A stretch of DNA of 64,000 nucleotides from assembly GCA_000002445.1 (NCBI GenBank), contig CH464491.1, positions 4,000,001 through 4,064,000 on the forward strand, written 5' to 3'. The DNA comes from Trypanosoma brucei (lineage: Eukaryota). The notes beneath the pieces were generated by a model, which worked only from the letters and a program-made list of their open reading frames with translations, did no database searches and had not been told where the DNA came from. Both the position numbers and the translations under genes were made by a program. Of this stretch, positions 10,939 through 34,742 are shown piece by piece (the stretch's first letter is position 1; each line of letters begins with the position of its first letter).

Positions 10939-11760
10939 CTACTCAAGGTCTGCCGCAAGCTCCAGCAACCGTTCTCTCAGTACACCTATTTGTTGACGTT
11001 GCGAAACGTCGGGAATACGATTGAGATCCTCGTCCGTCATGCTCACGATGCGCTCTACTTCTTCCTCGCTCAGCTTCGATAGGATTTCTATTATCTCATC
11101 ATTCTGCTCCCGCGGTGGCTCTACCTTCTCGCCCTCCCCCTCGGCTGGAGCCGCTGGAACCGGTGCATCCACTCTAATCCCTCCGTGCTGAATGGCCTCT
11201 GGTGGCAACGGTCCGAAAGGAAGCCGACCGGCATGCTGTAAAATCATAACAACAGCCAGTCGCAACGCAGGATTATTTTCCAGCAACTTGCGAGCCTCAT
11301 TCTTACGCTCCAACACCAGAACCCGTAACTGCTCCACGGCCTCATAGGCATCTGACTGTTGCATTCCCTGCAAGCACTCAAAAATGCTAGTATCATCGCG
11401 ACCGAGAACCGGATCGGTGTATCCACGAGGAAATGTCATCCCCCCGCGCGGGGCTGGTTGCTGTTGATGGGAAGCGTTCTGTTGACGTTGCCTCTTGCGG
11501 CCCCGCGTGGCCGCTGCGGACATAACTTTCATTGGTCGACCACCAAAGGATGTCCCGTTGAGGCGAGCAATGGCTTCCTCTGCACTAGTAGAATCCAAGT
11601 ACTCGGCAAAGCCGTAGCGAAAATCTTTCCCCACGGGCGGACCAAGCAACCGGAAGTCCGTTATGTGGCCCACACTTTCAAAGTGCTTACGCAAACTTCG
11701 CTCCTCCACAAAAAGCGGAACATCCGTGAAGAACACACTCGTCGTCTGTGTGGAGGACAT
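10939..11760 (-). CDS. RRM-domain RNA-binding protein (273 aa), possibly CstF-64-like
   Basis: N-terminal RRM with an RNP-1-like 'FRYGFAEYLD' and an RNP-2-like 'VFFTDVP'. Gly/Arg-rich linker. The C-terminal helical segment 'EEVERIVSMTDEDLNRIPDVSQRQQIGVLRERL' is reminiscent of the CstF-64 C-terminal domain; the family call beyond RRM is inference. Confidence 0.7.
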   Translation of the reverse strand: MSSTQTTSVFFTDVPLFVEERSLRKHFESVGHITDFRLLGPPVGKDFRYGFAEYLDSTSAEEAIARLNGTSFGGRPMKVMSAAATRGRKRQRQQNASHQQQPAPRGGMTFPRGYTDPVLGRDDTSIFECLQGMQQSDAYEAVEQLRVLVLERKNEARKLLENNPALRLAVVMILQHAGRLPFGPLPPEAIQHGGIRVDAPVPAAPAEGEGEKVEPPREQNDEIIEILSKLSEEEVERIVSMTDEDLNRIPDVSQRQQIGVLRERLLELAADLE

Positions 11761-17280: not shown

Positions 17281-19330
17281 GGGATGTAGATACTTTTGAT
17301 CTTAAGAAATCTTTTTACAAGAAAAGGGAAAGACTCTCCCGTTCTGTCCCTTTGATCGTTCCCCTGGACGTTCACAAGGTCGATGTTTATTTCGTTAAAG
17401 ATAACCAATTGTTTCTTTCTTATTTCCTTCTTACTCCTTAATTTCTCTTCCGGTTTACAGCTGTCTCCCTTTGTTCACACCTTACGTTTGCAATCGTACT
17501 CGTGGCTATACCACGCGGTAAACCCAAGTGGAGAAAAAGTGTTTCAGAGAAAATTTGATTGGTGTGCTGTTGGGGGGGGGGGAGAGTTGCGCACCAATTC
17601 ATATTGAAGCGAAAACGGTAGCAGAAGTAACAGCAACAATTTGTTTTAAAAGGGAAGCAATGCCCCAGAAGCATTACCCAAAATAAACTACTGTGTAAAT
17701 ACAGGGGGTTCATAATTATGCAGTCGATAAATAAACTAAGAGGACGTGGAATCGCCGTAGAAACCAAACCAACACACGAAAAAAAAAAGAGACTGTGTAA
17801 AAACACGAACTAATAACAAAAGCAGGACAGGCAGTAGAAAATATGCTGTTATTTGTTTCATAGTAGCATATATTACTTCCATGCTAAAACAAAAAGATGG
17901 TTGATGTGTCCGTGGTCGTAGACAAACCCCCGGCGTAGCAACTTGCAAAACGGAAAAAACAGGCAACATGGTAAGTGTTTCACGCACGTTAGAACACAGT
18001 TTACATAGAGGGAGAGCAGGCCACATGCAATTAATTTCGAAATAAAAAAAACTGTTATCCGAGAAAAATTGGTGGGAGAGTAGCTATCCTGTGAGTTGCA
18101 CCAGTTCAGTTACAGTCAAAGGATATGTCACACTGCGCCTGTAAGTTGTTCAAAATGCTCTGACCGCTCCATCTGAGGGTCAGATAAACCACTTACGAAG
18201 AGCCCATCTTTGCTTTGTCGTCTACGTGGGTTCAGTCATACAACAGCATATGGTACGTCCGTGACCCACCGCGGAAAACGAAAACTGTCACTGCACAGAA
18301 CATCGCATAACTTCGGCAACCGAGGTCACTGGAAGTGCGTATGATAGTGGAACAAGTATAGATACAAGTGTGCACCGGGTAACGTCACTTGTGGTGCCGA
18401 AACCGAGACGACTGTATTCGGTAGCAACATCATTTCTCGCATCACTGCGTGATCAAGAATGCACAACAGCCATTTTATTGTATAAATGCGAGCGTACACA
18501 CAACAGTACGAACTTTTTTAAAATTTAAGCTGCAGAGTTTAGTACACAGAATGTGAGGAGGCTAATCCCTTGGGACCGTTACCTAACAAGATTCCAGAAA
18601 ATTTAACTTTCTAGAAACGATTGTACAATGTAGTCTCCACCCTTAACCCTGTAGCAGTAAAAGCTGCAGGTACTCGAGAGGTAGGTCACTATTCTGTCAA
18701 GCTGTCCCCTGCTCGAACCATAATAGAAGATCGGGTGTGCAAATGCGTGAGAGAAGTAAATTTCTTCATCCGCTGGCCTGGGGCGAGGGTCTCGGAAGCC
18801 GTGACAGCATACGACAAACGTATGACACATTGTAGCGCCCTTCTTTATCACCTGTATCCATGATAATCCCGTTTAGTCATACTGTATAAACTAGTCCAGC
18901 AAAATTACGCAATCACACCTTCAATAACCTACAGCGGTACTCTGCAGTGGGCAGGCTCCGGCGTTAGCGTGGGTTCCAACGGCATGAACGAGTGATAGAA
19001 ACCCTCCCTCGCTACGTAGAAAAGAACACAGTTTTGCGCATGCAAACTACACACAATATTCAACAACGAGAAAAAAACTAACACTTGGTCGCGGCGCAAT
19101 GTCCTTTGGAAAAGCTGTATATATGGCAAAAGCAGGGTCACAAATTTTTGAAAGCAAGGTCGTCCCATTTGTTGCAGGTTGTAATTTTGGCATTATCACA
19201 TGAGAAGATAGTGCGTGAAGAGGCGACACTTCTAGTAGAGCCCGGTTACCCAAGAAAAAAACAAGGAACACAAAATAAGAGAGTACCTTCTTAGCCAAAG
19301 AAGTGGAAGAAACGACATAAAATACATATA

Positions 19331-19741
19331 TCACGATTCTTTCGTTCTTGTTCCTTTTTCCTTCCTAAGCAACTCGTTGTTGACCATAACATAAGGATGT
19401 CCACATATTTTTTTGCTGTGCCGCGTATTGTTTCTAAGAAGGTACTGGGATAGCCAAGATATAGGGTGCGTATTTCCAGTAGGTCCGTAGCGATGGGAAA
19501 CCTCGTCGGGTTCCAAAGCGCACTGCTGCTGACGCTTTACTAATTCGTACAGGGCTGGAACGAGTGTTGGGAAGACGTTTTCACGCAAATATGTGACATT
19601 TTCTCCCTCACACGATGCATTGACAGCTGTCTCGACATCCTCATATCCGCACCAAATCTGCTCTTCAATCAGCCGAATCATCATAGCCTCACTAAGAGCC
19701 TGTGTATCCGCCGATACCTCCATTGTAGTTACGTCTATCAA
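19331..19741 (-). CDS. Dpy-30 motif-containing protein (136 aa)
   Basis: 'YLRENVFPTLVPALYELVKRQ...' followed by '...HPISWLSQYLLRNN' matches the Dpy-30 dimerisation/docking motif pattern (YL..V.P.L..GL..L......P.DP...L..YLL.N). Confidence 0.6.
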   Translation of the reverse strand: MIDVTTMEVSADTQALSEAMMIRLIEEQIWCGYEDVETAVNASCEGENVTYLRENVFPTLVPALYELVKRQQQCALEPDEVSHRYGPTGNTHPISWLSQYLLRNNTRHSKKICGHPYVMVNNELLRKEKGTRTKES

Positions 19742-22700
19742 CCCCTAAAAAGAATCAAAAAGTAAGAGGTTGTTATGTTTAAGAATTGATGTGCGTGCAA
19801 GTAGGGGCAAACATCCATAGGTACATTGTGTTTAAGCGGTCGCATCACAGCTCAGCTTCAAAAAAAACGATCCCATTATTATAAATAACTGGCAGTTAAG
19901 CACCCCCAGGTTATGTGTATATGTGTACGTGCGTTTGTGCATATGAATGTGCGTACTTATATAGTGGGTAAATTGGAAACGCAAGGAAACGTGTTGACAA
20001 AAAATTAAACGCATCAGCAACGACGAAGAGAAAAATCCAAATAAACAACAGGGAAGTCTTTTGTAAACCACGCACGTTCCTCCACGTACTATGCGACAGA
20101 AATTTTTATTTATCGATACACCAAGACAGTATTTGCTAAGGAATTGCCACGCAGGTTGATGTGAAGGATAAGATATATCCATTTATTAACTAAATGGACG
20201 AAAGCGGATGGAAGTGTCAAACAATCAAGGAAAAATTAAATGCGCCCAGAAAATCAACGATTTTCACTGGTCGTACGAATAGCAACTTCCATTATACCTC
20301 AATAAAGAAAAAATAGCCCTGGGAAAGTGAGGTAGCTAGAACTGTTACTACTTGCATAGTACGCCTTTTCAAGCAAGCAACTTCAGGCGGTATACCTACC
20401 AACTTATCAAGTCACCTGAGATCAGTGGGGAAATCAAGATATCTAGTAACAGAAAACATGTCCACAATGCAGAGAGAGTGAATTAGATCCACAACATGAA
20501 GAAAAGGATGATTGAGTCAGGAAAAAAAAATCACGGCAAACGTGAGTTTAGTTTTGACATAGCGGTGGAGCGGTACATCAATCCCGAAAAAATACGAAGC
20601 GCAACTCCGTGTGTCCGATGATCAAACGACACTTCTTCACCACGGCACAAATCATAGGAAGGGCACCAAACGACGATGCTACAAAACCTTCAGACCATTG
20701 CATAAGTTCATTACCCCATAGCTCACCGTCGGAAACAAGTTTGCAGAGATATGAGTTACTCAGCCCTGCTTACCGGTAATTTCCGTGATGTCAAAAACGT
20801 CGAAGGTGAAAGAAGGACGAAAACCCCACCCTCGGCAGCTGTCGCTTCCCATTACACGCACCTTGCAGATAATCTTCCAGTTTGTCGCAAACAGGGCAAC
20901 AGCTGCGCCAACAGCACACAAATACAAAGCCACGAAACCGCCTCCTCCTCTGCCTCCCCCCCCCCCAAATATCACACACAATACACTCAAAGGTGTGTGG
21001 TAACGTCAAAATTCTGACGTCTTTTTCGGTGATGCAGCATGCCAAGCCTGAGACTCCTGATGAAATACTGAAGAAGAAAATTAACATTAGCAGGTCAAAT
21101 TTTCGTAGGTTTAATCTCGAGTTTTCCTACAAACTTCAGGAAACCAAGGTTCATAAAGATCATTAGCAACATTTGTTACATAAGCCAAACAGATGCATTA
21201 CTTCAAATAACGAGGACATATACAACCAAAGGCACTGTGCACCGATGGGTGGCACCGTCGTGCAACGACACAAACGCTTTCTGCCGGATGACATATGTCG
21301 GGAAATGCATTTTATCTACTGAAGAGGGAGATAGTGCAACCCTCTTTGATGAGACTGGCCCCTTCGTATATACGCCCTTCCTCCTTACCACCTGAAACGG
21401 TACGACATCGTAACTGTTGCGTCGTTATTATTCCACTCTCATACGTCGACTTCTTCTCATCACAAAACTGGCGCCACGGAACCATTACACAGGGGTGGTA
21501 CAACCCGTGAGCAACAAATAACATACGCAACATCAGTTTTAGAGGGACGTTACAAATTATTTTGGATCATTTCCGGGAAGAGTGAATTTTGACTCAACAA
21601 ACTAAGCGTTGCGCAGCCAATAAATGAGAAATAAGACCCCCTGGCCAACTCGCAGACAAGTGCTCACCACACAAAAGGTTGGTTGTGCAGGGGGGAACGT
21701 GTGAAGACATGAAAATAACGTGGTGACGTCAATACTGGAGTTGTGGTGTCACATATGACTTCCGCTTCACCATATACTTTGCCAACCCACATATCGCTCT
21801 TATACCTAATGGAAAGTAGTGGAGCGCCCAAGAAATACGAAAACTCGCCAACAAGCAACTTCCAAGACATTACAATCACTGTCTACATGTGCTCGAACGG
21901 TCTTCAAACGAACCTCTTCTTGAGGTAGATAGGCTACATTCAGACATAAGCGCATGTTCTTCGAGTAATGAAAGGATGCAAGTTGTATGACAGCACGACT
22001 CTTGTGACCACCAAAGGGTGGCACCCGTTCAAAAGTAAAAAAAAGATTGACGCGTCCACCCAAGATATTTGTCCGCTGCATTATTGCATGGAGACAGGAA
22101 ACGGCAATCGGTTCTTTCGACCGCGCTAGGTGAAAATGCCAACTTCCCGAAGTCTCAGCTCTATCGCCTTTAGTGGAGCCGTTTTCCCCTTCATGCGCTT
22201 TACGACCACAAAGGGCACACAGATCTGTATACCGAATAGCAAGTTCTACCACGTTTGAATAAAGGTGCACAGATGATTGTACAGAGGGGAATGTCATTGC
22301 ACAACCTTTCTACCCTTTAAGCCCCTTGTCCCTGCTGCCCCTCAGCACCCAGTTAATTGACCGTTCAGCCAGGTTCATCCTATTTTTCCAATGGAAACAA
22401 CACTGCCGGATGCAAAAGAGTCAAAACAGGGGAGCAGAAACCAGATTCCTCCCCCTCCTTCCCCCTGAGAATTAATAGCGATACATGAGCTCCCATGTTG
22501 CCCCTAAAGGCATACAAGAAACTAGGCCAAAGGTGAACCACATGGGAAGCGGCCGGAGTAGCAGAAAAACAAATCGATTCTGACCACTTCAACACAGAGC
22601 CAGGGCTCCGCACCTCCCCAAGGTAAGGCGAGACAACTACTCACAACCACCTCACCATAATTATCCTGTGGAGGAAAGACCGAGGTCTTGGTCCGCCGCG

Positions 22701-23354
22701 GGCGGCGCAGCACATCCACAGAGGGACAAATATCGCAGCTAGCGGCTTCGCGGGAGCGGAGTCACCAACAACAACACCAACGGCACCGAATTACCACCTA
22801 CACACCCCTGGAAGAACGCCACTGGGCTCGTGGCGGGGACGGCGCCTAACCATCCTCTCGCCCACTGTTTCCATCACTTTTCTTCAGGGCCTCTCCCTCC
22901 CATTCTCATTTCTCTTGCCCTTAGGCGTCGGCGGCCCTTCGTTTGCGACCATTGTGGGATGCGCCTGTGTTTCCAAACCCCACATGGGGCTAAGCAAACG
23001 CGACGCAAGTGGGGGACGGGCGCGGCACTCGGCGGCACCGTTCCACTGCGGGGGGAGAGACCATGCAGACTTTCTCGAACCCGCATAAATCGTACGATCG
23101 GGCCCTTTACAAAACATTGTTCACGACGAGAACGTTCCAACCAGCAGCGGTTCAGTAAGTGCGACAACGTTTCCCCCCAGTCGTTGCGCTGGCTTATGCC
23201 TTCGAGTGTCGCATGGAAGTGCTGGCCCCCCTCTTATCAAGTGTACGGCTCATCCGATTGCACGCTGTAGCGCGCGCATTGAGCACACCGCCGCCGCGGC
23301 GCGCGTCTGACTAGCAAGTGAAGTCCACCGGCGCCAACTTAATGCACTAGAACC

Positions 23355-23434
23355 CCCTGGCGATGCCGGCCACCTCAACGTGGTGCCAGGGTCCAGTCTC
23401 CCGTATCATCGGGGGAAGCCAAGAGCCAGCAGCG
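23355..23434 (+). mobile_element. Pr77-like 5' signature (~79 nt) of trypanosomatid non-LTR retroposons (ingi/RIME/L1Tc/NARTc/DIRE family)
   Basis: Sequence 'CCCTGGCGATGCCGGCCACCTCAACGTGGTGCCAGGGTCCAGTCTCCCGTATCATCGGGGGAAGCCAAGAGCCAGCAGCG' closely matches, from memory, the conserved first ~79 residues shared by ingi, RIME, L1Tc, NARTc and DIRE elements. In L1Tc this region is reported to act as an internal promoter and an HDV-like ribozyme. Confidence 0.6.
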
Positions 23435-26400
23435 TTCCTTTCATGGGGAACACTGCTGTGCTCCGGCTACAGCGTCATACAGCACGGGGATCAGAAGCGT
23501 CTTGCTGGGACACCGTTTTTCATTTGTCGGTCCCTGGGCACGTGACAGCGTTGCCATCGACGGTATCCGGAGTTTTCCCTATGACGTTGTGTACGTTTGG
23601 AAAACATCCAGTGACATTCTCGCACCCTTTTCTATTGTCAGGGATTCTGTTGGGTTACTGCGGGCCGATGGGGCTGCATTTGCCCGCTTCACGAATATCA
23701 GTCTGTTGCCGTTGCATGTTGTCGAAGCGACCACATATTTCTTTCCAAACAATACAGATTTCTCGGTTCATAATCCGTGGCATCCACCAGGCGGTGATTG
23801 TACACTGTTTCCACTGAATCGTTGTGCAACCTGCCTGTCCCACACTTCCATTTTCATATCTTTGTAATCTTCCGCACGTATGAGTCTTATTCAAGCGTGG
23901 GAGAGGGGTTTACAGCCGCATCGGAGGTTTGCGCAACGTCGACAGCCCTCATGGACATACGCGATGGCGGTAAGATCCGACTAAGGGCTGCTAGCAATTG
24001 TTGAAGCCGTATTGCTGTGCGGCAACTTTGTTGAAGTTCCAAATGCTGTGTTGTAAGCCGAACCTTAACGGTTCTTTCCACCGATCTTCATAGGCACCTC
24101 GTGAGCGTCAGTAGTTCGTATGAGTTTTCATATTTCATTTTCTTACAAGCTGCTAGGGCATGGATGTTCAGACGACACATGATTCTGTTTTGATGTTTCG
24201 ATTCTCTTCTACGGACTCATATCAAACAGTTAAAGCAAGAGCGTAAATTATTTGTTTCTGGGATGTTACTGTGTTTCGCTGCCCAGATAAGGGGAGGCAG
24301 CCGCCGAGACACGTGGTAGCTGATGCGGTGATATCATGAGTTGAAAAAGTGTTATCGTTCGGAGCTATATCATTTTTGTGTTTATAAACACTAACTATTG
24401 TGAGTAGCTATGCCGCTTGAGAGACGAAGGGCATAGGTCAGGGAAGTGCCTCACCCGTTACCGGCCACTGGCAGAAACTTCGTCCGCCATAGCCAGCGGA
24501 GTGCTGTGAAACATTGGAGTATATATACATATACATATGCTGGTGATGCATCACCCATATGGGTCTTAAACCTTTAGTCGTCACAAAAGTGCACACCACC
24601 TCTTCAATGCCACAGGATCCAGCGGTTGCTTCCGCATAGCACTCAGCCCTTCCTCAATTTAGTGAGATCAAGCTCTTAGTAGCGTTTATCTACAGGGTTA
24701 AGAAAGTTCGTGTTCCCAGTGTTGTATTGTACTGTGGTGTTCCCCTACTCACTCGTGGGGCAGCTCCAGCAGGTTGAAATAAGATCGTGGGGTAGAAGTC
24801 AATCGTTTGCCCAACCCACATAAACTCCGCCATTTCTGCCCTTTTTTTCCTTGTACGTTCCCTCGGTCTCCCTTCCGAATTCACCCCACTTAAGTTTTGT
24901 TCATACATGAAAAAGAGGTATCCGACACTGGAGGTTCAGGTTATCCATTGTGTTTTTCCGCTAAATTACACAGGATAAGATAGGGTGATGGTACATATTT
25001 GCTGAAGTGTAGTGATATCCATGCGTACACCCCGCGCCATCTTTACAGGGGATGCATCATGTTCGGGCTTCGCCGCTCAGTGCGGGCACTTGGTGCCATG
25101 GCCAGTTTTTGGTTGACTCGAAAATGGTTGTTGATGCAGCGCCGCATTAAAGTTTCTCCTTTGGTATGTGGTTGGATGGTGCGGCATCAGGAAAGCGCGT
25201 TGGCAAGAGCACCGGCACCAATGAGTTACGCAAGTCAGGTTACGCGCATTGGCTTATTTACCCCTAGCATTAAAGTGTGGCGTGACAGAGTTACTAGTGA
25301 AAGCGGCAATTTGCATCCTATCTTGTAGATGGGCGATGGCCCGCGTATCTTAGACGTGTGAAATGACTTCTATTCATGGCTCTGCTAGAAGGTCTTCCAT
25401 AATGAGTATACGAGCATGCCGCTACCTTCTTACACATGTAAGTTGTCCTGTGATGTGTTGGTAAAAGGTAGAGCTTATGGACCTTGATTATGCAGTTGTT
25501 ATACTAGTTCTATTCACGGCACAGAAGGTTGAAAATGCATCAACGAGCGTTTTATAGAATATACTGGGATTACTTTCCTCTAGAACGTGGTGCAACTCTA
25601 TTGATGTTCCAATGCCAGAACTTTTATAGACCCCCCTTTACGTGAATGGACAGAGGTGTTCTTTGTAGTGGGAAATCGTCGGATAATGCGTTCCCAGGGA
25701 TCGAAGAGTGCATAGTTGTATTCCAGAAAGATGCAACCCTCAAGTATTCCGTGTTTTGTGTAATTCCGTAGCCGTATTATAGTGGTGTTTTCTAGGTGAG
25801 AAACGCTGCCTGCTTTTGGCTTCTTCTGAACACCGTAAAGTACAGGAAAGCGTGCCAAGGCGCTCAGGCAGCCGGCGCCGAGAGGGTGTAACGAAGCAAA
25901 TACTGTGGAAGTGAGTGGTAAAGCTGTGCCACATTGATGTGGAAGGAGAGGGGGAAATACTGTGCGGCGCCCTTCCTTGTTTCGATGGATGCAAATTTTC
26001 AGAACCCGCAACCATTGATACTCGCAAAGTGCGCATTTACACAAAGGCGAAGAGTGACAACACTTTGACTAGTGATTGAAACGTTACAAAAAAGGTGCCC
26101 CCAACATGGGTATGAAAGATATTTAGAAACTCTAAGAAGGTCAGTGCCAGCCACGCCATCGTGATGCCAGGGGTTGCTGCAAGAAGGGGAAGGCCAAGCA
26201 TTTACACGCATCCCTGCTTGTATGAATTGCGGCAGCAGGCGGCAGTCCAGCACACACGACACAACCCTCCTGAAAAAAATTACGGATGGAGGCGCAAAGA
26301 AGTGGAACCTGGTAACGGAAAGTCCCTAGTGTCCGGAGGCAATTTTTCAGAAAGGCTGCCCTGGCACGACACCAAAAAATAGTAGCACATGATTGTGAGG

Positions 26401-28500
26401 GAAAGAAAGGCCACAACGAACCAATAGCCTAGTACCAGGAGATATTCGCTTATTTATTCTGATACCCAAAGCTTGTAAGTGCGATGAAATAAATGGAGCC
26501 AATGGGCACAGTGGAACATGAAGGAGGCCAATCCGAGGAGCCGGAGCAACCCCTTCTGAAACTTTTCAAACTTCCAGATTAAAGCAAGAAAAATCCCATC
26601 GTGAAGAACAACTACGTGGCCGCAGAAGAGAGCCTCGGAATCCCTTACTACAGTTTTGTGGCTCGCCACCAACTCTCTGAGCCCAAACAAAATGTTGCGC
26701 TGCTAAAAGGGGCCGAAAGGATTACCAAATCCTGAAATGAGCACGCAGGGAAACGAGAGCGCACCCTACCTACACAGTTTTCATGCAGAGAAAAAGTTCT
26801 AGGGAACCGCTCGATCCTTCTGTAAGCAAGCGAATGAAAATCAAGCGGCAATGGGGCACGTTCCGGTTGAACGGACGGGGAAGGAAAAGTGCTGTGCACT
26901 ATGCATTCGCAAGTGTGTGAATCTTCTTGCCTTCATCTTGAGCATTCACTCGCGGGCCCCCTATGGGAGGCACATTTGTGCAGAGCCTCTTAGTGAAATC
27001 CAAGGTACCTGATTTATGAGGCGCATCCCAACCACTGGAGCACCATCCCCCCACAAAACTCAGTCGTTGGTGTATTGGGTGATTGTGAAAATGAAGTCAA
27101 CCTCTTATGCCTACGAAATGCTCTCCTGTATCCCTCGATGTCAGGTAGTATCCCACAGCCATTTCATATGCAACTTTATCAACGCATCCCAGTCCCGCCT
27201 CTTTGGGCGTGTGCACTCTCTCCATCCACCGGAAGGTGAGGCTGAGAACCACTAGGCGATGACACCCTAGCACACCCTTGCTTGGGTGATTCCAAAGTAG
27301 GAGGTTCTAGGCGTTTCATTCTCGGGAATTCCACTCTGACGACGCTACTGCTCCGAGTTCTATGAATATTTTTCCCTTCTGACTTTACTGTTTATTGAAC
27401 GTGCTCTAACACTCCCCCTTGGCGGCTTCAACGCGAGTGCCGAAAGCGTTTGGTACCTTTACATTATCAATTTCCCTTCACATAGCAGTGAGATGCAACA
27501 AATCACGAGTACGTACAACACCCGACCGACACTCTGTTGTTCACCATGGTGACCCACGGTGCAGGTTAAACGCACCACGCACTGCCGTACCCTTGAAGTG
27601 ACAGCCTCCGCACCTTTTACTTCTTAGAAGATACCACAAACAGAATTGCCATCCTCCTCCAATTTCCAACCTAGTCCCTCTTTTTCTAACCTCGGACTCA
27701 GCGTTAAAGGGAGAAATAACATTGGGTGCAAAGGGAAAACTTGTACACGCGTTGATTCAGATGCAAGCCCATCCAACTGACTAATGAAAACTAGGGCTTG
27801 AGGGGGGGGGGCACATTTTTATGCAATACACGACAAGCTAATTCCACAGAAGCTGAAGAATTACGGCAAAAAGTGGCATCAACCCCAGCACACTATGCGG
27901 TTAACCTGCAAAATGGAGGCTGTGCCTATTATCACAGTGGAATAAAATCTCTGGTTGGACGTGATTCTGCTTCTTTGCCCCCCTTTTTGGCCATATGCAC
28001 GCCCTCTCCCGTTTTTTATTCTACACTGCGAATATTTACTTCCAACAATGTAGAGCATCAGCAAGCAAAACGCACATATTATCACCAAGCATTGTGACCC
28101 TTCACCCATGCTGTTACTTTCCTCGTCAACGCCATAATGACCCATATGCACTCTTTTTTTTTCTGTCTCAAGAAATTCGTTCGCTTCACCTAGTTAAGCA
28201 TAAATTTCACGACAAAATTTCATCGCCACCACCACCTCCTCCCTATTGAAGTATTGCACTTCTTTATTGACCCGGATACTGCATGTTACGGTGGATGAAC
28301 CCCCGCTTTTGTTTGGGATTTTCGTGAAACGAAGGAGTACAGCTCCACCCTCGCTTCCTTCCCCCGTGCACTTCGATGATGCAACATCCTTGCGTGTTCC
28401 AACAGATAATGCAAACTGGTATTCCACATTCATTTGACAGCGACCAAAAAGAAATCGACAGCGCGTTAAATCACCATTAACCCGATCTGAATCCGATTCC
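23355..28500 (+). mobile_element. Putative degenerate retroposon body (DIRE/ingi-like relic) downstream of the Pr77-like signature; 3' boundary not determined
   Basis: The ~5 kb downstream of the signature has only short, fragmented ORFs in all frames (max ~150 aa) and no terminal poly(A) that I can find. It lies inside a ~10-kb gene-poor interval, which is unusual for this otherwise gene-dense unit. The extent is inferred from the typical 5-5.5 kb size of ingi/DIRE. Confidence 0.3.
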
Positions 28501-28778
28501 GAGACTCCCGATTCGCAACTTCCCGTTACGTTATGATGCCACGGCAACAACCGTAAGAAGGCCTCCTCCCGTACCGGCATCCGTTTAAGGTCCTCTGAAC
28601 GAGATCGCTTCTTAAGCCTAAAATAACGGTTGTTAAATTCATTTAGCAATCTTCCTAAGCTCACACTGTAAACGGTAATATTTGTCTTTAACGCCTTCAT
28701 ATATTCCCTCACCCGTCGTCTCCCCTTTATCTTCAGCTCACTCGTGGGATCAATTACTCCCTTAATGTGCTGTTCCAA
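28194..28778 (-). CDS. Orphan ORF (194 aa) inside the gene-poor / retroposon-relic interval; coding status doubtful
   Basis: Longest ORF in the 19.8-29.9 kb interval, same strand as the flanking genes. No recognisable motifs. Could be chance, or a fragment of degenerated element sequence. Confidence 0.2.
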   Translation of the reverse strand: MEQHIKGVIDPTSELKIKGRRRVREYMKALKTNITVYSVSLGRLLNEFNNRYFRLKKRSRSEDLKRMPVREEAFLRLLPWHHNVTGSCESGVSESDSDRVNGDLTRCRFLFGRCQMNVEYQFALSVGTRKDVASSKCTGEGSEGGAVLLRFTKIPNKSGGSSTVTCSIRVNKEVQYFNREEVVVAMKFCREIYA

Positions 28779-29970
28779 CCAATAGGAATGCTACTCAAAG
28801 AGAGTGATATTGGCTAATAGTTGCCTCTTTATCTGTGCCTTGCGATAGAAGACTTCGTAACCGAAAACCCCCGGATTGTTCATATCTATCTGTGTAGCCC
28901 ATCCTGTATTTTTTTCCGTTGCTCCACAACTGTAAAATATGTGTAACACGAAATAACAAGCATATACCCTTTTCATTCCAGGAATTATCTGCCTCTTCCG
29001 CTTGATTTCGGTGTTACACGTCCAAACCTACTTTGTCCCACCCACCCCCTACGCACACACTGAATAAGTAAATAACCTAATCAATTGACGTCAAGGCTTA
29101 AACCCCCCCTAAAACTGGCGAAGGCGCGAAACCAAGGGGAGAACGAGGTCACATATGTGTTGGGTGGAAAGTAATAACTGGCGCGGGAGCTGTTACATTA
29201 TTTGACATGCGTATGTTTGTTTGGTAGGGCACCGGAAAGAACTGCAGCCCCAGGGCCAAGAACTTTATCCGTGGAATTGGTGATAAGGGCATCCTGTTTG
29301 TTGAAGCATTGCTTTTCTAGCCGTTGCAACTCCCATCATAACCCGCACAAATTGCCCTAATATCCTGAATGTAATTCTACCTACCAAATATCGGAACGTT
29401 GGGGGTGCTTTCGCTAGGCGGGTGAGAAAAAATACTTCACACAATGTAGTAGCACCCGCATCAGATGAATGCTTGATCCTGCTTAATCTTTGCTGTGCGC
29501 ACCAAACATCCAAACTCCACTAGCATCGATATTCTTCCCGCGACAAACGAGGTTCACGTTGTCATCAGAGTCAAATAACTGTGGGAGAGGAAGCCGCCAC
29601 CGCAATCGGACCCATCATGCCGCGCAAATTCTACTCAATAAGAGGCATGTGAGGGGGCGGTGGCGACGTGACGGGTAAAAGTTACGACGAAAAGAGTGTT
29701 ATGTGTGTCTTTGAAAGTGTGGCGAGCGTTGAAGCGACAGCTCTTTAAGTTGTTCCCCAAGTTTGTTTGAGGGGACTGTCGGTGCGGGAATGAAAGCAGA
29801 CAGTTCACGCGGAGAATGGTAAAGACGAAAAGTTGTAATCTTCTTTTAGAAGCACTACACAAATGAAAGCTAACGTGTGCAGGTGGTGACGCATGCGCTT
29901 GGATACTCAGTTCTCCGGGAGACGACGCTTTGCGTACACGAGAATACGCAAGAGCCTGTGAGTGGAAGGG

Positions 29971-32900
29971 TTAGAACCAGCTATTTTTTTGCTTCTGATT
30001 TAACTTCCGGGCCAATGCCTCAAACGTGGTCGCTTCCTGCGCCAACTCACGCGATTTACTTTCAATTTGGGAAATTTTTTCACCTCGCTCATGCACCTTG
30101 ACTTCGTTCTCCCTCATCATCTGCAGCGCCTCGGTCACACTGACGTTCTCCCGCGCGGCGACAGCCTTGAGCTCGCTGTACCGGCTTCCTCTCCTTTCCT
30201 CGCTTCCCTCCCTTTCAGATCTCCTTTGGGACAGGACCGCTCCGTCTCTCCCTCTCTCAACAATGGAATCGGGCCGAGGGTGCTGTGGTGCAGCCCCCTC
30301 CATCTTTTTCACCAAGACATTTGTTTCAATCTTCGTAGCTGCCTCCTCCCAGGACTGTGTGGTCAACCGTTTCAGCAGCCCCTGCTCTTGCTTTACTGCC
30401 GGCGGGGGTGGCAAAAACTGCAAGTAAGACCGGAAGGTTGGTGGTGCGGGTACGTGGCGGATGCCTTCCAAAGGTTCCGCAGTCAAACGAAGCTGGTCAC
30501 TAACATTGCTTTCAGCTGAAACGATAAGATGTCCAAGTGCTCCCGACACTCCTACCACGTAGATGTGAAGCCCACTTCCTTCTATGTAGTGTGTGTGGAG
30601 GCGGAGGTCGTTTTCATCACAAAGACAGAGCATCGTATGCTCCGCCAGTCGCTGACCACTCTCGAGGTCTAATACGTTGAACCATCGCCATCCATTTGCG
30701 TCCCGACTCATCACGACCACCACGCGGAGAGACATGCAAACCCCCACATGCTCAACGGAGCGTCCCCGCCCCACCACAGGGGGTTGCATGCGGTTCGATG
30801 GAGCTTCTCCCGACAAAAGCCGCTCAGCAAGATATAAGTGAACCTTGCGTCCATTCCAAAGAACAACCGTTGTGTCAGGCGGGGAGTCTTCACCCAGTAC
30901 GTTTCTCAGGCGGCTTCTTTCCTCTTCCTGTTTTTCCTGCTCGTCTTCTGCATGAAGATCACACTGCAAGGCATCATAGGGCCATCCGGGATTCACTTCC
31001 ACCGCGACAATTCGACTACCTGGTGTGACAACTCCTCTCAAGGTGTACTCGCCGTCTGCACTCACAACCACTTCCCCACCAGAGACAACAACACTCAGGC
31101 GAAGGTCTTTTGAATTAGACGAGGGGAGCAATGTCCACTCCGTATCGGTCCCACCAACTCTCCCGTACCATAAACCTCCGGGGGGTTCTGCACACCACCG
31201 TAGCTCAACAGCAAAAATGACGCGGCCGAATACATCGCGGAAACTGACGGTGCCTCGAAAATCAGAATTTTTCTCGGCACTGGGGTCGCTTTTACCATCT
31301 GAAACATCGGCATGGGGAGCTCTAACCACAAGGCTGGCGGCCCCTGCCGATACCGAAAACCGTGGAGTTGAACTGCACAACATGACTTTGTCGTAGCTCC
31401 ACCTACCATCATCCTCCCGGTGATAGCCGAGCATCTGCATGTCGGACATGTTCCAGATTATTAGCCCTCGATCGTTTGAGAGAGTACAAAACAAGGCCAA
31501 AAAGCTGTTCTTACCCTCACAAACAGGGCCAGTACTGCCGGCTGAACAACTTCGACCCATCCAAACTGTGTCAAAAGATGTTACAGATGCGCCCGCTGGA
31601 AATAGGCCTCCCGGATAATGAACCATGGCGGGCGCATTCCCTTCCCCAGTGACCCCGCCGCTTAGGTCAACGATGACCAAGTTCCCATTACGCAGTTGCA
31701 GAAGGATGCTCATCCCACCACGCACCAACTGGAAGGCTTGCGGTGTAAGTTCCCGCTGTTCAATTCGGCAGTCTGCCAACTTTGCGGTCCGCGCGATAAT
31801 CTCAGCTTCTCCATCTTGTCCATCGTCCCCGACACTAGCTCCGCCAAATATGAGTTGCTCTTTTGAGAGGGTCATAATATGTTCCACATGTGGTGGTGAG
31901 AATCGCACGGCATTTACTGATACCCCCATTTCGTCAGCCAAAACGCGTAGTATAAACTCAGTCCTGCAAGGATGCTTTGGAAGGGCTTCCTCGAGTATGA
32001 CGACCGCCGAGCCCGTAGGCAATGACGCGCGGGCGTTAGCAGCGGTATTCTGTTCGATTACAGTAGCCGGTACTGGGAGACACTCATTGGTTAGGGGAAG
32101 GAAGCATACAGCCCCAGTAGCCGAATACGGAACCATACCCAGAAGTATTTCTTTCTGTAGTCCCTTTCCTTCCACATCGCCTTCGCACTCCAAGCAGGCT
32201 AGGACAGTAGCCCATGGATCTTCCGGGTCTGGTTGTAAAGAAGCGCCATGCCAAATGGCTCTGGTAACCTCCGCGGGGGGGGACACCAGCAACATTTCAT
32301 CCCACGGAAAGGGTTCGGGCATGACGTTTCTTAACGGGACAGCGGACTCCACATTTCGTTGATATCGTGAGCGCCGTACCAAAAGAGGGCCCAGGTCTTC
32401 AGATAGCACAAGAAGTGTGTCCAAGTCCGAGTCCTTCCATTCGCTCAACCAGTAACCCGGCCCAACGCATGGAATGACACGGCAGAGGTCAAGTGATGAT
32501 GATTCATCGCCTTCACACTGCAGCGGCAGGATTTTCGCCTTTATGTGTGACAAAATGTCCTCCCGCTGAATTAATCGCTTCTCTTCCAAGTTAATCACAA
32601 GTTCCACAATATCACAAGTGGAGTGCAGCAAAAAATGCAGGGGCGACTTCTTCTCGGACCGCGCACCATGTGGTGGGTCGCTGGAGTGCGCGATGTACAT
32701 GCCGGTAGACGACACCACTTCGTCGTCTGGTCCCCCGACCGGGGAGCAAGGACGGCATCCGGTTTGTACACTCCACATGAGTGCCACTGACCTTTCCTTG
32801 TCTTTCTTGCCGTTTTCCGCCCATATGTAAAGGGCGGAAGCGTCAAACGCCGCGGCAACAACGAAGGAAGCTCCAGGGGTATACCTGCATGCCGTAATAC

Positions 32901-33642
32901 CACACCCCGTTTGGGGTTCTGGCAGGGAAAAGAAACGACTGAGACGATTTTCGTCCAAATACCACTTGCACACTCCAGCCGCACCGGCGACAACCGCAAT
33001 AAATGTATTCGGATTACTCGGGCAGCTATTCATAGAAAGCACGTAGCCTCGTGGTGCCCACTCACTTGAAGCTGCTGAGAAAAAGGGGCGGCAAAGATTC
33101 ATTGTGCTCGTTGTTAGTGCCGCCCACACCAACTGCTGAGTTGAACCACTTTCCTGTAGCCTCCAGTACATAACCGTACCATCCTCACAGCCTACTGCGC
33201 CCCACGTCACACCCTGCGGTACGTGAAGACTGGTAAACAGCACCCCCCTTTTCCCGCATGGGGACAACGCAGAAGAGATCCCATGAAATGCGTAGTCGAG
33301 AAGCACCAGCCGCTCCGGGGAGAGCAGCAGCACACTTGAAGTTCCAGAAAAGATGCTACAGTCAATCCAACGGACGCAGTTTGGGACCTGCAGCAGCATC
33401 TGCCGCCTACCACGCGCAACAAGCAGTGCAGGCACGTTATTGCCGACGCATAGGACAACTTGGCGAACCGGGTCATGGGCACAAAGATGATATGAAGTGT
33501 AATCCACCGTTTCATCCACGCACTGCATTTGGGCCCGCTTCAGGGTCGCTGCTTCGGGGTCACCTGCCTCGGTCTTGAACGCCGTTACGTCCGAAGGATT
33601 CAGCCATCGCATCAAATTTTCGAACATCTCCAAGTTACCCAC
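29971..33642 (-). CDS. Tomosyn / Lgl (lethal giant larvae) family protein with C-terminal R-SNARE-like motif (1223 aa)
   Basis: C-terminus 'ALQMMRENEVKVHERGEKISQIESKSRELAQEATTFEALARKLNQKQKNSWF' aligns with the VAMP/synaptobrevin R-SNARE layer pattern (..[33 protein letters not shown].WW), with the central Arg in 'HERGEK'. The long N-terminal region has repeated GxxDG/WD-like beta-propeller character, as in tomosyn/Sro7/Lgl. Confidence 0.7.
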   Translation of the reverse strand: MGNLEMFENLMRWLNPSDVTAFKTEAGDPEAATLKRAQMQCVDETVDYTSYHLCAHDPVRQVVLCVGNNVPALLVARGRRQMLLQVPNCVRWIDCSIFSGTSSVLLLSPERLVLLDYAFHGISSALSPCGKRGVLFTSLHVPQGVTWGAVGCEDGTVMYWRLQESGSTQQLVWAALTTSTMNLCRPFFSAASSEWAPRGYVLSMNSCPSNPNTFIAVVAGAAGVCKWYLDENRLSRFFSLPEPQTGCGITACRYTPGASFVVAAAFDASALYIWAENGKKDKERSVALMWSVQTGCRPCSPVGGPDDEVVSSTGMYIAHSSDPPHGARSEKKSPLHFLLHSTCDIVELVINLEEKRLIQREDILSHIKAKILPLQCEGDESSSLDLCRVIPCVGPGYWLSEWKDSDLDTLLVLSEDLGPLLVRRSRYQRNVESAVPLRNVMPEPFPWDEMLLVSPPAEVTRAIWHGASLQPDPEDPWATVLACLECEGDVEGKGLQKEILLGMVPYSATGAVCFLPLTNECLPVPATVIEQNTAANARASLPTGSAVVILEEALPKHPCRTEFILRVLADEMGVSVNAVRFSPPHVEHIMTLSKEQLIFGGASVGDDGQDGEAEIIARTAKLADCRIEQRELTPQAFQLVRGGMSILLQLRNGNLVIVDLSGGVTGEGNAPAMVHYPGGLFPAGASVTSFDTVWMGRSCSAGSTGPVCEGKNSFLALFCTLSNDRGLIIWNMSDMQMLGYHREDDGRWSYDKVMLCSSTPRFSVSAGAASLVVRAPHADVSDGKSDPSAEKNSDFRGTVSFRDVFGRVIFAVELRWCAEPPGGLWYGRVGGTDTEWTLLPSSNSKDLRLSVVVSGGEVVVSADGEYTLRGVVTPGSRIVAVEVNPGWPYDALQCDLHAEDEQEKQEEERSRLRNVLGEDSPPDTTVVLWNGRKVHLYLAERLLSGEAPSNRMQPPVVGRGRSVEHVGVCMSLRVVVVMSRDANGWRWFNVLDLESGQRLAEHTMLCLCDENDLRLHTHYIEGSGLHIYVVGVSGALGHLIVSAESNVSDQLRLTAEPLEGIRHVPAPPTFRSYLQFLPPPPAVKQEQGLLKRLTTQSWEEAATKIETNVLVKKMEGAAPQHPRPDSIVERGRDGAVLSQRRSEREGSEERRGSRYSELKAVAARENVSVTEALQMMRENEVKVHERGEKISQIESKSRELAQEATTFEALARKLNQKQKNSWF

Positions 33643-33649
33643 AGCTACA

Positions 33650-33700
33650 GAGTCAAATAATCAAAAAAAAAGTATGAACAACAATAGGTAGTGCAAATCT
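33650..33700 (-). promoter_or_regulatory. Polypyrimidine tract (minus strand) 5' of the tomosyn-like gene
   Basis: Plus strand 'caaataatcaaaaaaaaagtatgaacaacaat' immediately upstream (coordinates >33642) of the minus-strand ATG. Confidence 0.35.
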
Positions 33701-34742
33701 GGACCTGTGCGCTGGGGAACAGTGTCTACTTCAAACTGCAGCGAAGCATTACCGAAAAAAAATCCACATACAAGTGAAAATACGTGGGTGGGGCGAGACC
33801 GTTGTCAGAAGGGGGGAAACATACGTCACTGTCCGTGAAATGTGATTGGATGGCAGTAGCATGGAAAAATATTTAGCGTTCTCTCGTTTAAACGGAAGGA
33901 ATATAACAACTGGAAGGAAAAAATAAATACTCATCCGCAGCCGCGCCGGGCACCCTAGAAAAAGTTTCTAGTTTTTACAAGGTAAGTTAGTCTCGGTCCT
34001 TAACTCAACTCATCGTGGCACGGAATGTAACTCAGAGCACCGTTCCGTGGCCTTTTTCTAATCCCGCTGCTGTGGCGCAAGTCGAAATCGTACGTGTGCG
34101 CATAAGATTTATTCGTGGGCACCGAAAATATATTGGTAGTTCATATGAGCTTTATGGTTTGGGCTAGTGGTTGATTCCAAGAGAGAGAGAGAGCAGAGAT
34201 GCAATGAAAGGCGTAATATACGGAAGCTCACCGATCCAATTTCCCCTTCCCCGGTTATCAAACGGAGTGGAATGTCTTGGTCCACTTGATCCGAACTCCA
34301 CGTAAACAGCGGAGGCATTCGTGCAGACGCTTATGGGTCGAGCAAAAAATAAATAAAAGATAAACAACTAAATTAATGAAACACGGCATAAATAATAATA
34401 ATAATAGTAAATGAGCAACGGCGGCATAAAACAAAACTTTTTAATGACGAATAAAAACTATGACAACGTGGAGGAACGTCTCAGCCTTGTATATATCAAT
34501 ACGAACTTCGCCACTAGAAACAACCAGCGCGTATGAAATAAAACAAAAGCGTAAGTGACTGAGTTCTGAATTCAATACAACCAAGTCACAATCCATCCCC
34601 ACGCCCTGTTACGCCCGTTTGCCGCGTTCCCCTATTTTTTCGTTTAACGATATTGAAAATTAAGGCGAAAGGAAAGGGAGGTATTCAAAATAAAAATAAG
34701 AATAAAAAATACGGGTGCAAAAACAACATAGAATAAAAATCT

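What the first reader, a model, noticed from the sequence alone, without database searches (positions are those of the whole stretch)
19800..29900. ~10-kb interval without a credible gene inside an otherwise dense polycistron
Elsewhere in the window genes are spaced 0.3-2 kb apart. Between the Dpy-30-like gene (ends 19741) and the tomosyn-like gene (3' end 29971) there is ~10 kb with no ORF above 194 aa in any frame. The interval is compositionally heterogeneous: GC-rich around 22.6-23.3 kb, a C11 run at 20956-20966, and many short mutually overlapping ORFs on both strands. This pattern fits a decayed mobile element or elements (DIRE-like, see the Pr77 signature at 23355) and/or pseudogenised sequence. 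Alternatively it may host non-coding genes (snoRNA clusters, long UTRs) not recognisable by eye.
Basis: seen in the sequence. Interest (0 to 1): 0.6.

Follow-up and report, generated by a model that had tools for sequence, protein, structure and literature searches.

The report
Gene-poor gap with dead retroposon relics
This 10-kb stretch of Trypanosoma brucei chromosome 11 is an ordinary non-coding gap holding two decayed mobile-element fragments and two short unconstrained ORFs, at a position where two stercorarian trypanosomes carry a peptidase gene or its pseudogene.

Summary
Window 19742-29970 has no ORF above 194 aa, and 10-11% of dinucleotide shuffles give an ORF as long. The other gene spacings in the window are about 0.3-2.3 kb. 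The window is T. brucei chromosome 11. The interval is collinear and 98-99% identical in T. b. gambiense and mostly present in T. equiperdum, so it is not an assembly artefact.

I found two ingi-clade retroposon relics that face each other:
- A ~540-nt element at 23355-23894 (+). Its first ~213 nt are 94% identical to canonical RIME.
- A heavily decayed ingi/DIRE-like 5' end at 25886-25055 (-), with an AP-endonuclease remnant.

Together they cover about 14% of the interval. No Pfam domain appears in any of the six frames, and there is no tRNA, Rfam family or tandem array.

The reference annotation places two "T. brucei spp.-specific" ORFs here, Tb11.01.7030 and Tb11.01.7040. Against gambiense they show 11 nonsynonymous to 1 synonymous change plus a stop-codon polymorphism, so they look unconstrained.

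In synteny, T. theileri has an intact Peptidase_S28 gene between the same flanking genes, T. conorhini has its pseudogene, and T. brucei has no trace of it.

Verdict: an ordinary decayed intergenic region.

The parts
19742..29970 (.). The 10.2-kb gene-poor interval between the Dpy-30-like gene and the R-SNARE gene. All flanking genes are on the minus strand.
   Evidence: The longest ORF is 194 aa, no longer than chance. No Pfam domain in six frames. No tRNA, Rfam family or tandem array. Collinear with T. b. gambiense chromosome 11.
23355..23894 (+). Element 1, a ~540-nt short non-coding ingi-clade retroposon relic, antisense to the polycistron. Its Pr77/79-nt signature at 23355-23433 is nearly intact.
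   Evidence: Window 23352-23567 is 94.4% identical to the canonical RIME 5' end (L006, L008). From about nt 215 it diverges from both RIME and ingi. An 80%-identical copy of 534 nt lies on another chromosome (L007 8224-8755). It has no poly(A) tail, no 12-nt target-site duplication and no ingi4 target motif.
25055..25886 (-). Element 2, the decayed 5' part of an ingi/DIRE-like retroposon, in the sense of the polycistron and convergent with element 1.
   Evidence: Window 25689-25889 is 63% identical to RIME nt 1-191 (E 1e-12). Window 25559-25326 matches residues 79-154 of the ingi AP-endonuclease N-terminus at 29% over 78 aa with in-frame stops. That match starts 327 nt from the element start, against 325 nt in ingi, and 0 of 200 shuffles reach its score. 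A weaker collinear match lies at 25183-25055.
21806..22297 (-). ORF of 163 aa, annotated as Tb11.01.7030, a 'T. brucei spp.-specific' hypothetical protein.
   Evidence: Exact match to TREU927 EAN80484. Six nonsynonymous and no synonymous differences from gambiense. Codon-usage score 0.073, intermediate. No Pfam hit.
28194..28700 (-). ORF of 168 aa, annotated as Tb11.01.7040, a 'T. brucei spp.-specific' hypothetical protein.
   Evidence: Exact match to TREU927 EAN80485 and to TEOVI_000497400. The gambiense allele is 273 aa, because the window has TAG where gambiense has AAG at 28196. Five nonsynonymous and one synonymous difference. Codon-usage score 0.110, intermediate.
22600..23354 (.). GC-rich block immediately upstream of element 1. 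Its origin is unidentified.
   Evidence: GC 0.53-0.56. No Pfam hit on either strand. No similarity to any fetched locus other than its orthologues.
26997..27236 (+). Fragment of an unidentified old T. brucei repeat.
   Evidence: About 60% identical over 179 nt, and 35% over 78 aa, to L008 8656-8889, which lies in another gene-poor gap of T. equiperdum that also holds a RIME. It has no genuine homologue among 1.84 billion representative proteins.
19331..19723 (-). Flanking Dpy-30-like gene (130 aa).
   Evidence: Exact match in T. equiperdum, with orthologues in T. vivax, T. theileri, T. rangeli and T. conorhini. Pfam PF05186.
29971..33627 (-). Flanking R-SNARE (tomosyn-like) gene (1218 aa).
   Evidence: Pfam DUF7914 and Synaptobrevin. 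99% identical to the T. b. gambiense protein, and named 'putative R-SNARE protein' in T. conorhini.

Best explanation
The interval is a non-coding, largely unconstrained stretch inside a Pol II polycistron on Trypanosoma brucei chromosome 11.

Shown:
- In two stercorarian species the same two flanking genes, R-SNARE and Dpy-30-like, enclose one Peptidase_S28 gene. It is intact in T. theileri and a stop-riddled pseudogene in T. conorhini.
- In T. brucei no trace of that gene remains.
- The gap holds two convergent relics of ingi-clade non-LTR retroposons, one fragment of another old repeat, and otherwise anonymous sequence.
- The only two ORFs that annotators have called there are lineage-specific. 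They accumulate almost only nonsynonymous changes, and one is polymorphic for a premature stop.

Inferred:
- The S28 gene, taken to be the older arrangement because two stercorarian species share it, decayed in the lineage leading to T. brucei (no outgroup was examined), and the slack region then tolerated retroposon insertions and drift.
- Pol II reads through the interval. The RNA is either part of a long R-SNARE 3' region or is cut at cryptic trans-splice and poly(A) sites into low-value non-coding or short-ORF transcripts.
- The nearly intact Pr77 of element 1 points antisense to the polycistron. Pr77 is a reported Pol II promoter and HDV-like ribozyme sequence, so it could give a short unspliced antisense transcript. 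This was not tested.
For: Organism and reality of the interval:
- Two window ORFs are exact matches to TREU927 proteins Tb11.01.7030 and Tb11.01.7040.
- The interval is collinear and 98.3-99.2% identical in T. b. gambiense chromosome 11.

No coding signal:
- The longest ORF is within the chance range.
- Pfam finds nothing in all six frames with stop codons masked.
- No stop-free segment of 30 aa or more matches the syntenic loci of T. vivax, T. theileri or T. conorhini at E < 1e-3, apart from Dpy-30 itself.

Annotated ORFs are unconstrained:
- The two ORFs pooled show 1 synonymous and 11 nonsynonymous differences from gambiense. Five flanking genes show 27 synonymous and 23 nonsynonymous (Fisher p = 0.0077).
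- Their divergence is 1.2% per nt, against 0.54% for the flanking genes.
- There is an AAG/TAG polymorphism at 28196.

Retroposon relics.

Synteny:
- T. theileri: R-SNARE, then Peptidase_S28 (626 aa), then Dpy-30.
- T. conorhini: a 3.3-kb gap with S28 similarity (E 7e-49 over 416 aa) but no plus-strand ORF of 120 aa or more.
- Window: no S28 match even with phmmer --max at E up to 10.

No RNA genes.

Literature: Pr77 promoter and ribozyme properties from PMC1874656 and PMC4035085; short degenerate ingi-clade elements in T. brucei from PMC3820030.
Against: - About 85% of the interval has no identified origin, so 'junk' is partly a default.
- The codon-usage scores of the two annotated ORFs (0.110 and 0.073) lie between true genes (0.16 +/- 0.08) and spurious ORFs (-0.04 +/- 0.07), so young lineage-specific genes are not excluded.
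- The synonymous/nonsynonymous test rests on only 12 substitutions.
- No expression, splice-site, chromatin or proteomic data could be consulted.
- T. vivax also has at least 10 kb without a clear gene upstream of Dpy-30, but with unrelated, very GC-rich content. The history of the gap in Salivaria is therefore unresolved, and T. congolense could not be examined.
Confidence: 0.7

Rival explanations
1. The interval does carry real genes. Tb11.01.7030 and/or Tb11.01.7040 would be young, T. brucei-specific protein-coding genes, so the 'gene-free' appearance comes only from their small size.
For: Three genome annotations call them, in TREU927, DAL972 and T. equiperdum. Both lie on the coding strand of the polycistron. 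Their codon-usage scores are above the mean for spurious ORFs.
Against: - They show 11 nonsynonymous and 1 synonymous difference from gambiense, plus a stop-codon polymorphism that changes the product from 273 to 168 aa.
- Their lengths are within the chance expectation.
- They have no Pfam domain.
- The source annotations name both 'T. brucei spp.-specific protein'. They have no match in the fetched syntenic loci of other trypanosomes.
- A neighbouring unannotated minus-strand ORF of 73 aa scores higher on codon usage (0.126), so that score is not specific.
Confidence: 0.12
2. Most of the interval is mobile-element sequence. Element 2 would be a full-length (~5 kb) DIRE running from 25886 down to about 20.7 kb, with element 1 inserted into it in the opposite orientation. 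The GC-rich block at 22.6-23.35 kb would then be its dead reverse-transcriptase region.
For: Element 2 has a 5' signature and a collinear AP-endonuclease remnant. By my arithmetic, with 540 nt removed for element 1, the GC-rich block falls roughly where I recall the ingi reverse transcriptase to lie. This is an estimate, not a test. Nested and adjacent insertions of ingi-clade elements are described in PMC3820030.
Against: - No RVT_1, RNase H, zinc-finger or Exo_endo_phos hit at E <= 1 on the minus strand of 20000-29900.
- No reverse-transcriptase motif in a regular-expression scan.
- The C-terminal part of the ingi AP endonuclease (L013 8661-9131) finds nothing.
- I could not obtain a full-length ingi protein, so a family-specific reverse-transcriptase search was not possible.
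Confidence: 0.12
3. The interval is a functional non-coding locus. It could be a lncRNA gene or genes, or an internal head-to-tail transcription termination and re-initiation site within the polycistron. The retroposon Pr77 might contribute promoter activity.
For: The gap is unusually wide for a T. brucei polycistron. Strand composition switches in 23-26 kb. A nearly intact Pr77 is present. The literature reports Pr77 as a Pol II promoter and notes accumulation of these elements at transcription boundaries (PMC1874656, PMC4748587). About 1,500 lncRNAs are annotated in T. brucei (PMC10048164).
Against: - No Rfam family, tRNA or repeat array, which often mark such sites.
- Divergence from gambiense is higher in the interval than in the genes, about 1.0-1.8% against 0.2-1.0%. 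That gives no sign of constraint.
- The intact Pr77 points against the direction of the polycistron.
- The composition switch is explained by element 1 being in the plus orientation.
- No expression or chromatin data were available.
Confidence: 0.06

Closest known systems
TbRIME, the 500-bp non-autonomous partner of Tbingi (ingi4 subclade)
   Same: Element 1 begins with the same Pr77/79-nt signature and is 94-95% identical to canonical RIME over its first ~213 nt. It is short (~540 nt) and non-coding.
   Different: From about nt 215 it shares nothing with RIME, whose 5' half runs to nt 250 and is followed by the ingi 3' half. It also shares nothing with ingi, which continues into the 2A peptide and AP endonuclease. 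It lacks the poly(A) tail, the 12-nt target-site duplication and the GTxGGxT target motif. All three are present at the L006 RIME.
TbSIDER1 / TbSIDER2, short interspersed degenerate retroposons (~570 bp, 10 and 12 copies in T. brucei; PMC3820030)
   Same: Element 1 and its L007 copy share these traits with the SIDERs: about 540 nt, a 5' signature, no coding capacity, low copy number, and 20% divergence between the two copies. The paper reports a median 16% divergence from consensus for TbSIDER1.
   Different: TSIDER1 is described as sharing only the 76-79-nt signature with other elements, whereas element 1 shares ~213 nt with ingi/RIME. TbSIDER2 is described with two tandem Pr77 hallmarks (PMC4035085), and I see only one. 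SIDERs end in poly(dA), and element 1 does not.
TbDIRE, degenerate ingi/L1Tc-related elements (~5 kb vestiges)
   Same: Element 2 has a degraded 5' signature followed, at the right distance and on the same strand, by a frameshifted, stop-containing remnant of the ingi AP endonuclease.
   Different: Only about 0.83 kb is recognisable. No reverse-transcriptase or RNase H remnant was found.
Lineage-specific gene loss at a conserved synteny junction in trypanosomatids
   Same: The flanking gene order (EF-G-like, CSN8-like, R-SNARE, then Dpy-30, importin, RRM protein) is kept in T. conorhini. T. theileri (from R-SNARE onward) and T. vivax (from Dpy-30 onward) keep the parts their loci cover. The content between R-SNARE and Dpy-30 differs by lineage.
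   Different: T. brucei shows no recognisable pseudogene at all, unlike T. conorhini. The loss is therefore inferred from synteny only.

Membership tests
TbRIME (element 1, 23355-23894) | 5' 76-79-nt ingi-clade signature (Pr77) | tested here: met
   Window 23352-23567 is 94.4% identical to RIME nt 1-215 (E 4e-75). There are two mismatches in the first 79 nt.
TbRIME (element 1, 23355-23894) | About 500 bp made of the first 250 bp and the last 250 bp of ingi | tested here: not met
   Similarity to two canonical RIMEs stops at about nt 213-215, and the RIME 3' half is absent. The RIME 5' half runs to nt 250 in two ingi copies.
TbRIME (element 1, 23355-23894) | 3' poly(A) tail, 12-bp target-site duplication, and the upstream ingi4 motif GTxGGxT | tested here: not met
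   There is no A run at 23880-23910. The 12 nt before the element (tgcactagaacc) are not repeated downstream. The upstream 10 nt (gccaacttaa) match 2 of 5 motif positions. The control RIME in L006 shows all three features.
TbSIDER1 / TbSIDER2 (element 1) | About 570-bp degenerate non-coding element with a 5' signature, in low copy number | tested here: inconclusive
   The length (~540 nt), the signature and one 80%-identical copy elsewhere (L007) fit. The missing poly(dA) and the ~213 nt shared with ingi do not fit the published descriptions (PMC3820030, PMC4035085).
TbSIDER1 / TbSIDER2 (element 1) | Sequence identity to the TbSIDER1 or TbSIDER2 consensus | not testable with these tools
   The consensus sequences appear only in figures and supplements that are not held, and no T. 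brucei genome was searchable at the DNA level.
TbDIRE (element 2, 25886-25055, minus strand) | Degenerate 5' ingi-clade signature | tested here: met
   Window 25689-25889 is 63% identical to RIME nt 1-191 (E 1e-12). The conserved blocks GCCGGC, GAAGCCAA and TCGATCCCTGGGAACG are visible in the alignment.
TbDIRE (element 2, 25886-25055, minus strand) | Frameshifted, stop-containing remnants of the ingi coding sequence (AP endonuclease, reverse transcriptase, RNase H) over about 5 kb | tested here: inconclusive
   An AP-endonuclease N-terminal remnant is present: 29% over 78 aa, at the collinear offset, with 0 of 200 shuffles reaching its score. No reverse transcriptase or RNase H was found by Pfam or by motif scan. 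A full-length ingi protein was not available.
Protein-coding gene (Tb11.01.7030, Tb11.01.7040) | ORF longer than chance, purifying selection, and homologues or a domain | tested here: not met
   ORF length is within the shuffle range. Synonymous to nonsynonymous differences are 1 to 11, and there is a stop-codon polymorphism. There is no Pfam domain. The sources name both 'T. brucei spp.-specific'. Codon usage is ambiguous.
Protein-coding gene (Tb11.01.7030, Tb11.01.7040) | Evidence of translation | not testable with these tools
   No ribosome-profiling or proteomic data were accessible, and a literature search for the gene identifiers returned nothing.
snoRNA cluster or tRNA genes | Match to a known RNA family, or a tandemly repeated snoRNA unit | tested here: not met
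   ARAGORN found none. Rfam found none at gathering thresholds, and at E <= 1 only a single noise hit. There is no tandem array and no internal repeat other than the two retroposon 5' ends.
Peptidase_S28 pseudogene (syntenic expectation) | Residual similarity to the S28 gene that lies between R-SNARE and Dpy-30 in T. theileri and T. conorhini | tested here: not met
   phmmer --max against six-frame translations of 17281-29970 gave no hit at E <= 10, whereas the T. conorhini gap scored 6.6e-57. Pfam PF05577 was not found.

The most novel reading that the evidence does not exclude
The gap is not inert. Either it is a birthplace of T. brucei-specific genes, with Tb11.01.7030 and 7040 as de novo ORFs arising in DNA left by gene loss and retroposition, or it is an internal regulatory boundary or lncRNA locus of the polycistron. 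In the second case the antisense, nearly intact Pr77 of element 1 would drive a transcript that modulates read-through into Dpy-30 and the genes downstream.
Probability: 0.08. Interest if true: 0.5.

Novelty: already known. Interest (0 to 1): 0.15.

Why it matters
It matters little beyond good annotation.
- It shows that a striking 10-kb "hole" in a dense trypanosome polycistron is explained by gene loss, retroposon relics and drift.
- The two hypothetical genes annotated there are probably not constrained genes.
- The junction between R-SNARE and Dpy-30 differs among trypanosome lineages: an intact S28 gene, a pseudogene, no trace, or unrelated GC-rich sequence.
- The ~540-nt element, which shares ~213 nt with RIME/ingi and then has a different body, may be a minor unclassified variant of the short ingi-clade retroposons. 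That would interest only transposable-element annotators.

Tried and rejected
- Hidden protein domain: Pfam on stop-masked translations of all six frames found nothing.
- S28 pseudogene, or a remnant of the 918/986-aa gene, in T. brucei: phmmer --max found nothing.
- snoRNA, tRNA or other RNA family: nothing found.
- Tandem or dispersed repeats within the window: only the two retroposon 5' ends.
- Reverse-transcriptase motif scan: nothing.
- Polypyrimidine-tract mapping to infer processing sites: uninformative with my criteria.
- Exact-sequence look-up of ten interval ORFs as a proxy for copy number: none is in the collection. Five of these were also mistranslated, because GTG and TTG starts were read as V and L.
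- Exhaustive HMMER search with the 80-aa frame at 26997-27236: the only hit is a bacterial repeat adhesin with no aligned stretch, which I treat as spurious.
- Obtaining a full-length ingi: the two gambiense loci I fetched hold only about 1.3 kb and 0.43 kb of ingi 5' sequence.
- Fetching the TREU927 locus itself: not on record.
- Literature search for the old gene identifiers and for 'tomosyn' with a Tb927.11 identifier: nothing.
- Assembly artefact: rejected, because three independent assemblies agree.

Full report
**Observation**

All long ORFs in the 64-kb window lie on the minus strand, as in one trypanosomatid polycistron. Between the Dpy-30-like ORF (19331-19741; the ATG that matches database proteins is at 19723) and the R-SNARE/tomosyn-like ORF (29971-33642), no ORF exceeds 194 aa in any frame.

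In 300 dinucleotide-preserving shuffles of 19742-29970, the longest stop-to-stop frame (198 codons) is reached in 10.7% of cases. The longest ATG ORF (168 aa) is reached in 10.3%. The ORF content is therefore what chance gives.

The other gene spacings in the window are 0.27-2.3 kb. The C11 run at 20956-20966 and the GC rise at 22-24 kb (0.53-0.56 against 0.43-0.45) are as described.

**Origin of the window and reality of the interval**

- The Dpy-30-like and R-SNARE proteins are exact matches to proteins on two Trypanosoma equiperdum OVI contigs.
- Two small ORFs inside the interval are exact matches to T. brucei brucei TREU927 proteins Tb11.01.7030 and Tb11.01.7040.
- The T. b. gambiense DAL972 chromosome 11 locus is collinear with window 21019-43642 at 98.3-99.2% identity. 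The only structural difference is a run of N.
- The T. equiperdum contigs end at window 23382 and 25309, the first 28 nt into a repeat.

The interval is a real feature of the T. brucei group and not an assembly artefact.

**Retroposon relics**

Element 1, 23355-23894, plus strand:
- Window 23352-23567 is 94.4% identical to the first 215 nt of a RIME that interrupts an RHS pseudogene (L006). It is 92.6% identical to another RIME (L008).
- Both of those are about 500 nt and end in poly(A).
- The L006 copy has the published ingi4 target motif (GTGGGATCCC) and a 12-nt target-site duplication, so it is a valid reference (motif from PMC3820030).
- Beyond about nt 215 the window element departs from RIME. 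It also departs from ingi, which continues into the 2A-like peptide and the AP endonuclease, as shown by proteins P0008 and P0009 and loci L013 and L014.
- Its continuation to about 23894 is shared, at 80% identity over 534 nt, with one element on another chromosome, whose flanks are unrelated (L007).
- It has no poly(A) tail, no target-site duplication and no target motif.
- I read it as a short, non-coding, degenerate ingi-clade retroposon. It is RIME-like at its 5' end and SIDER-like in size and state. It cannot be assigned to TbRIME, where defining features were tested and not met.

Element 2, 25886 to 25055, minus strand:
- Window 25689-25889 is 63% identical to RIME nt 1-191 (E 1e-12).
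- Downstream on the same strand, 25559-25326 aligns with residues 79-154 of the ingi N-terminal AP endonuclease, at 29% over 78 aa and with in-frame stops. The match starts 327 nt from the element start, against 325 nt in ingi.
- None of 200 locally shuffled intervals reaches its score (30.4 bits; the highest shuffle score is 26.9).
- A weaker collinear match follows at 25183-25055.
- This is the 5' part of a DIRE-like element, oriented with the polycistron and convergent with element 1.

These are the only two ingi-clade 5' ends in the 64-kb window. None occurs in the syntenic loci of T. vivax, T. theileri or T. conorhini.

A further fragment, 26997-27236 on the plus strand, resembles a piece of another gene-poor, RIME-bearing gap in T. 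equiperdum (60% at the DNA level, 35% over 78 aa). It has no genuine protein homologue in an exhaustive search.

**What is not there**

- Pfam scans of stop-masked translations of all six frames gave no reverse transcriptase, endonuclease, RNase H, peptidase or any other credible domain.
- A motif scan found no reverse-transcriptase signature.
- ARAGORN, Rfam (gathering thresholds and E <= 1) and Tandem Repeats Finder gave nothing.

Recognisable mobile-element sequence is about 1.4 kb of 10.2 kb. That the whole interval derives from mobile elements is therefore not shown. A nested full-length DIRE remains possible, because I could not obtain a full-length ingi protein for a family-specific search.

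**The two annotated ORFs**

Tb11.01.7030 (21806-22297, 163 aa) and Tb11.01.7040 (28194-28700, 168 aa) are named 'T. brucei spp.-specific protein' or 'hypothetical' by their sources.

| Comparison with T. b. gambiense | Synonymous | Nonsynonymous | Divergence per nt |
|---|---|---|---|
| Tb11.01.7030 + Tb11.01.7040 | 1 | 11 | 1.2% |
| Five flanking genes | 27 | 23 | 0.54% |

- The difference in the synonymous to nonsynonymous ratio gives Fisher p = 0.0077.
- The gambiense allele of 7040 is 273 aa, because the window has TAG where gambiense has AAG at 28196.
- Codon-usage scores (0.073 and 0.110) fall between true genes (0.16 +/- 0.08) and spurious ORFs (-0.04 +/- 0.07). An unannotated 73-aa ORF nearby scores 0.126.
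- The balance favours unconstrained ORFs. The counts are small and no expression data were available.

**Synteny**

| Species (locus) | Arrangement |
|---|---|
| T. theileri (L012) | R-SNARE, Peptidase_S28 (626 aa), Dpy-30, a 986-aa gene, importin |
| T. conorhini (L005) | R-SNARE, 3.3-kb gap, Dpy-30, a 918-aa gene, importin |
| T. brucei (window) | R-SNARE, 10.2-kb gap, Dpy-30, 2-kb gap, importin |
| T. vivax (L010) | at least 10 kb without a clear gene, Dpy-30, importin |

- In T. conorhini the gap matches the S28 protein at E 7e-49 over 416 aa. It has no plus-strand ORF of 120 aa or more, so it is a pseudogene.
- In the window, neither S28 nor the 918/986-aa gene leaves any trace.
- In T. 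vivax, Dpy-30 is preceded by at least 10 kb with only small ORFs lacking domains. The composition is very GC-rich and then AT-rich, and the sequence is unrelated to the T. brucei interval. R-SNARE is not within reach.
- The junction is therefore evolutionarily labile.

**Mechanism**

Shown: the absence of coding and RNA-family signal, the two relics, the unconstrained ORFs, and the syntenic S28 gene or pseudogene in other species.

Inferred:
- The S28 gene was lost in the lineage leading to T. brucei.
- Pol II reads through the interval. The RNA is a long 3' region of R-SNARE, or it is processed at cryptic sites into low-value transcripts.
- The antisense, nearly intact Pr77 of element 1 might give a short unspliced transcript, because Pr77 is reported as a Pol II promoter and HDV-like ribozyme sequence (PMC1874656, PMC4035085).

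None of these inferences could be tested with sequence tools.

**Verdict**

This is an ordinary, decayed intergenic region of a known kind: T. brucei gene-poor gaps with RIME, SIDER or DIRE vestiges and orphan ORFs. It is already covered by the reference annotation.

The interval does contain decayed mobile elements, one of them DIRE-like. The flagged Pr77 element is not a DIRE, mobile elements account for only a minority of the interval, and the non-coding-gene alternative finds no support.

Noticed in passing
window 17281-19330; L012 10736-13696; L005 18134-20890: T. theileri and T. conorhini carry a 986-aa and a 918-aa gene (43% identical to each other, no Pfam domain on record) between Dpy-30 and importin. 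T. brucei has a 2-kb gap there and T. vivax a 1-kb gap, with no trace of the gene. This is a second gene absent from both salivarian species at this locus.
   Followed up: partly
window 33643-34742; L005 7534-9669; L012 1-2146: A gene of about 711-722 aa lies immediately upstream of R-SNARE in T. conorhini and T. theileri (56% identical to each other). It has no counterpart in the 1.1-kb spacing of the window, nor anywhere else in the window (tblastn).
   Followed up: partly
window 43624-48275, inside ORF 42414-49295, minus strand: A long tandem array with a 162-nt period (54 aa) at about 99% identity sits inside a 2293-aa ORF. An overlapping 1584-aa ORF on the opposite strand is probably a by-product of the repeat.
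   Followed up: no
window 23382 and 25309; L003 18013-18024: The T. equiperdum OVI assembly breaks exactly 28 nt into element 1 and again at 25309, leaving 23383-25308 unassembled. It also has a 96-nt near-duplicate plus an N gap at window ~25615-25710, inside element 2. This is probably collapse at a repeat or at a heterozygous site.
   Followed up: partly
L008 4501-15268 (T. equiperdum CM010682.1): This is another gap of about 10.7 kb with no called gene other than one 219-aa hypothetical ORF that runs into a RIME. It holds a canonical RIME (10436-10945), an older ingi-type 5' signature (2950-3166, just outside the gap) and the fragment similar to window 26997-27236. Such gene-poor gaps with retroposon relics recur in the T. 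brucei group.
   Followed up: partly
L010 1-7000 (T. vivax SOPI01000762.1): The region upstream of T. vivax Dpy-30 is 62-69% GC, with long overlapping ORFs on both strands (up to 589 aa) and called genes of 289, 107 and 166 aa without Pfam hits. It is followed by 3 kb at 33-35% GC. I did not determine what this is.
   Followed up: no
L006 1350-2092 (T. b. gambiense chromosome 11, RHS cluster): Two short called genes carry RNA polymerase Rpb2 domains 4 and 6 (74 and 92 aa) next to RHS pseudogenes. They are apparently fragments of an RPB2 pseudogene.
   Followed up: no
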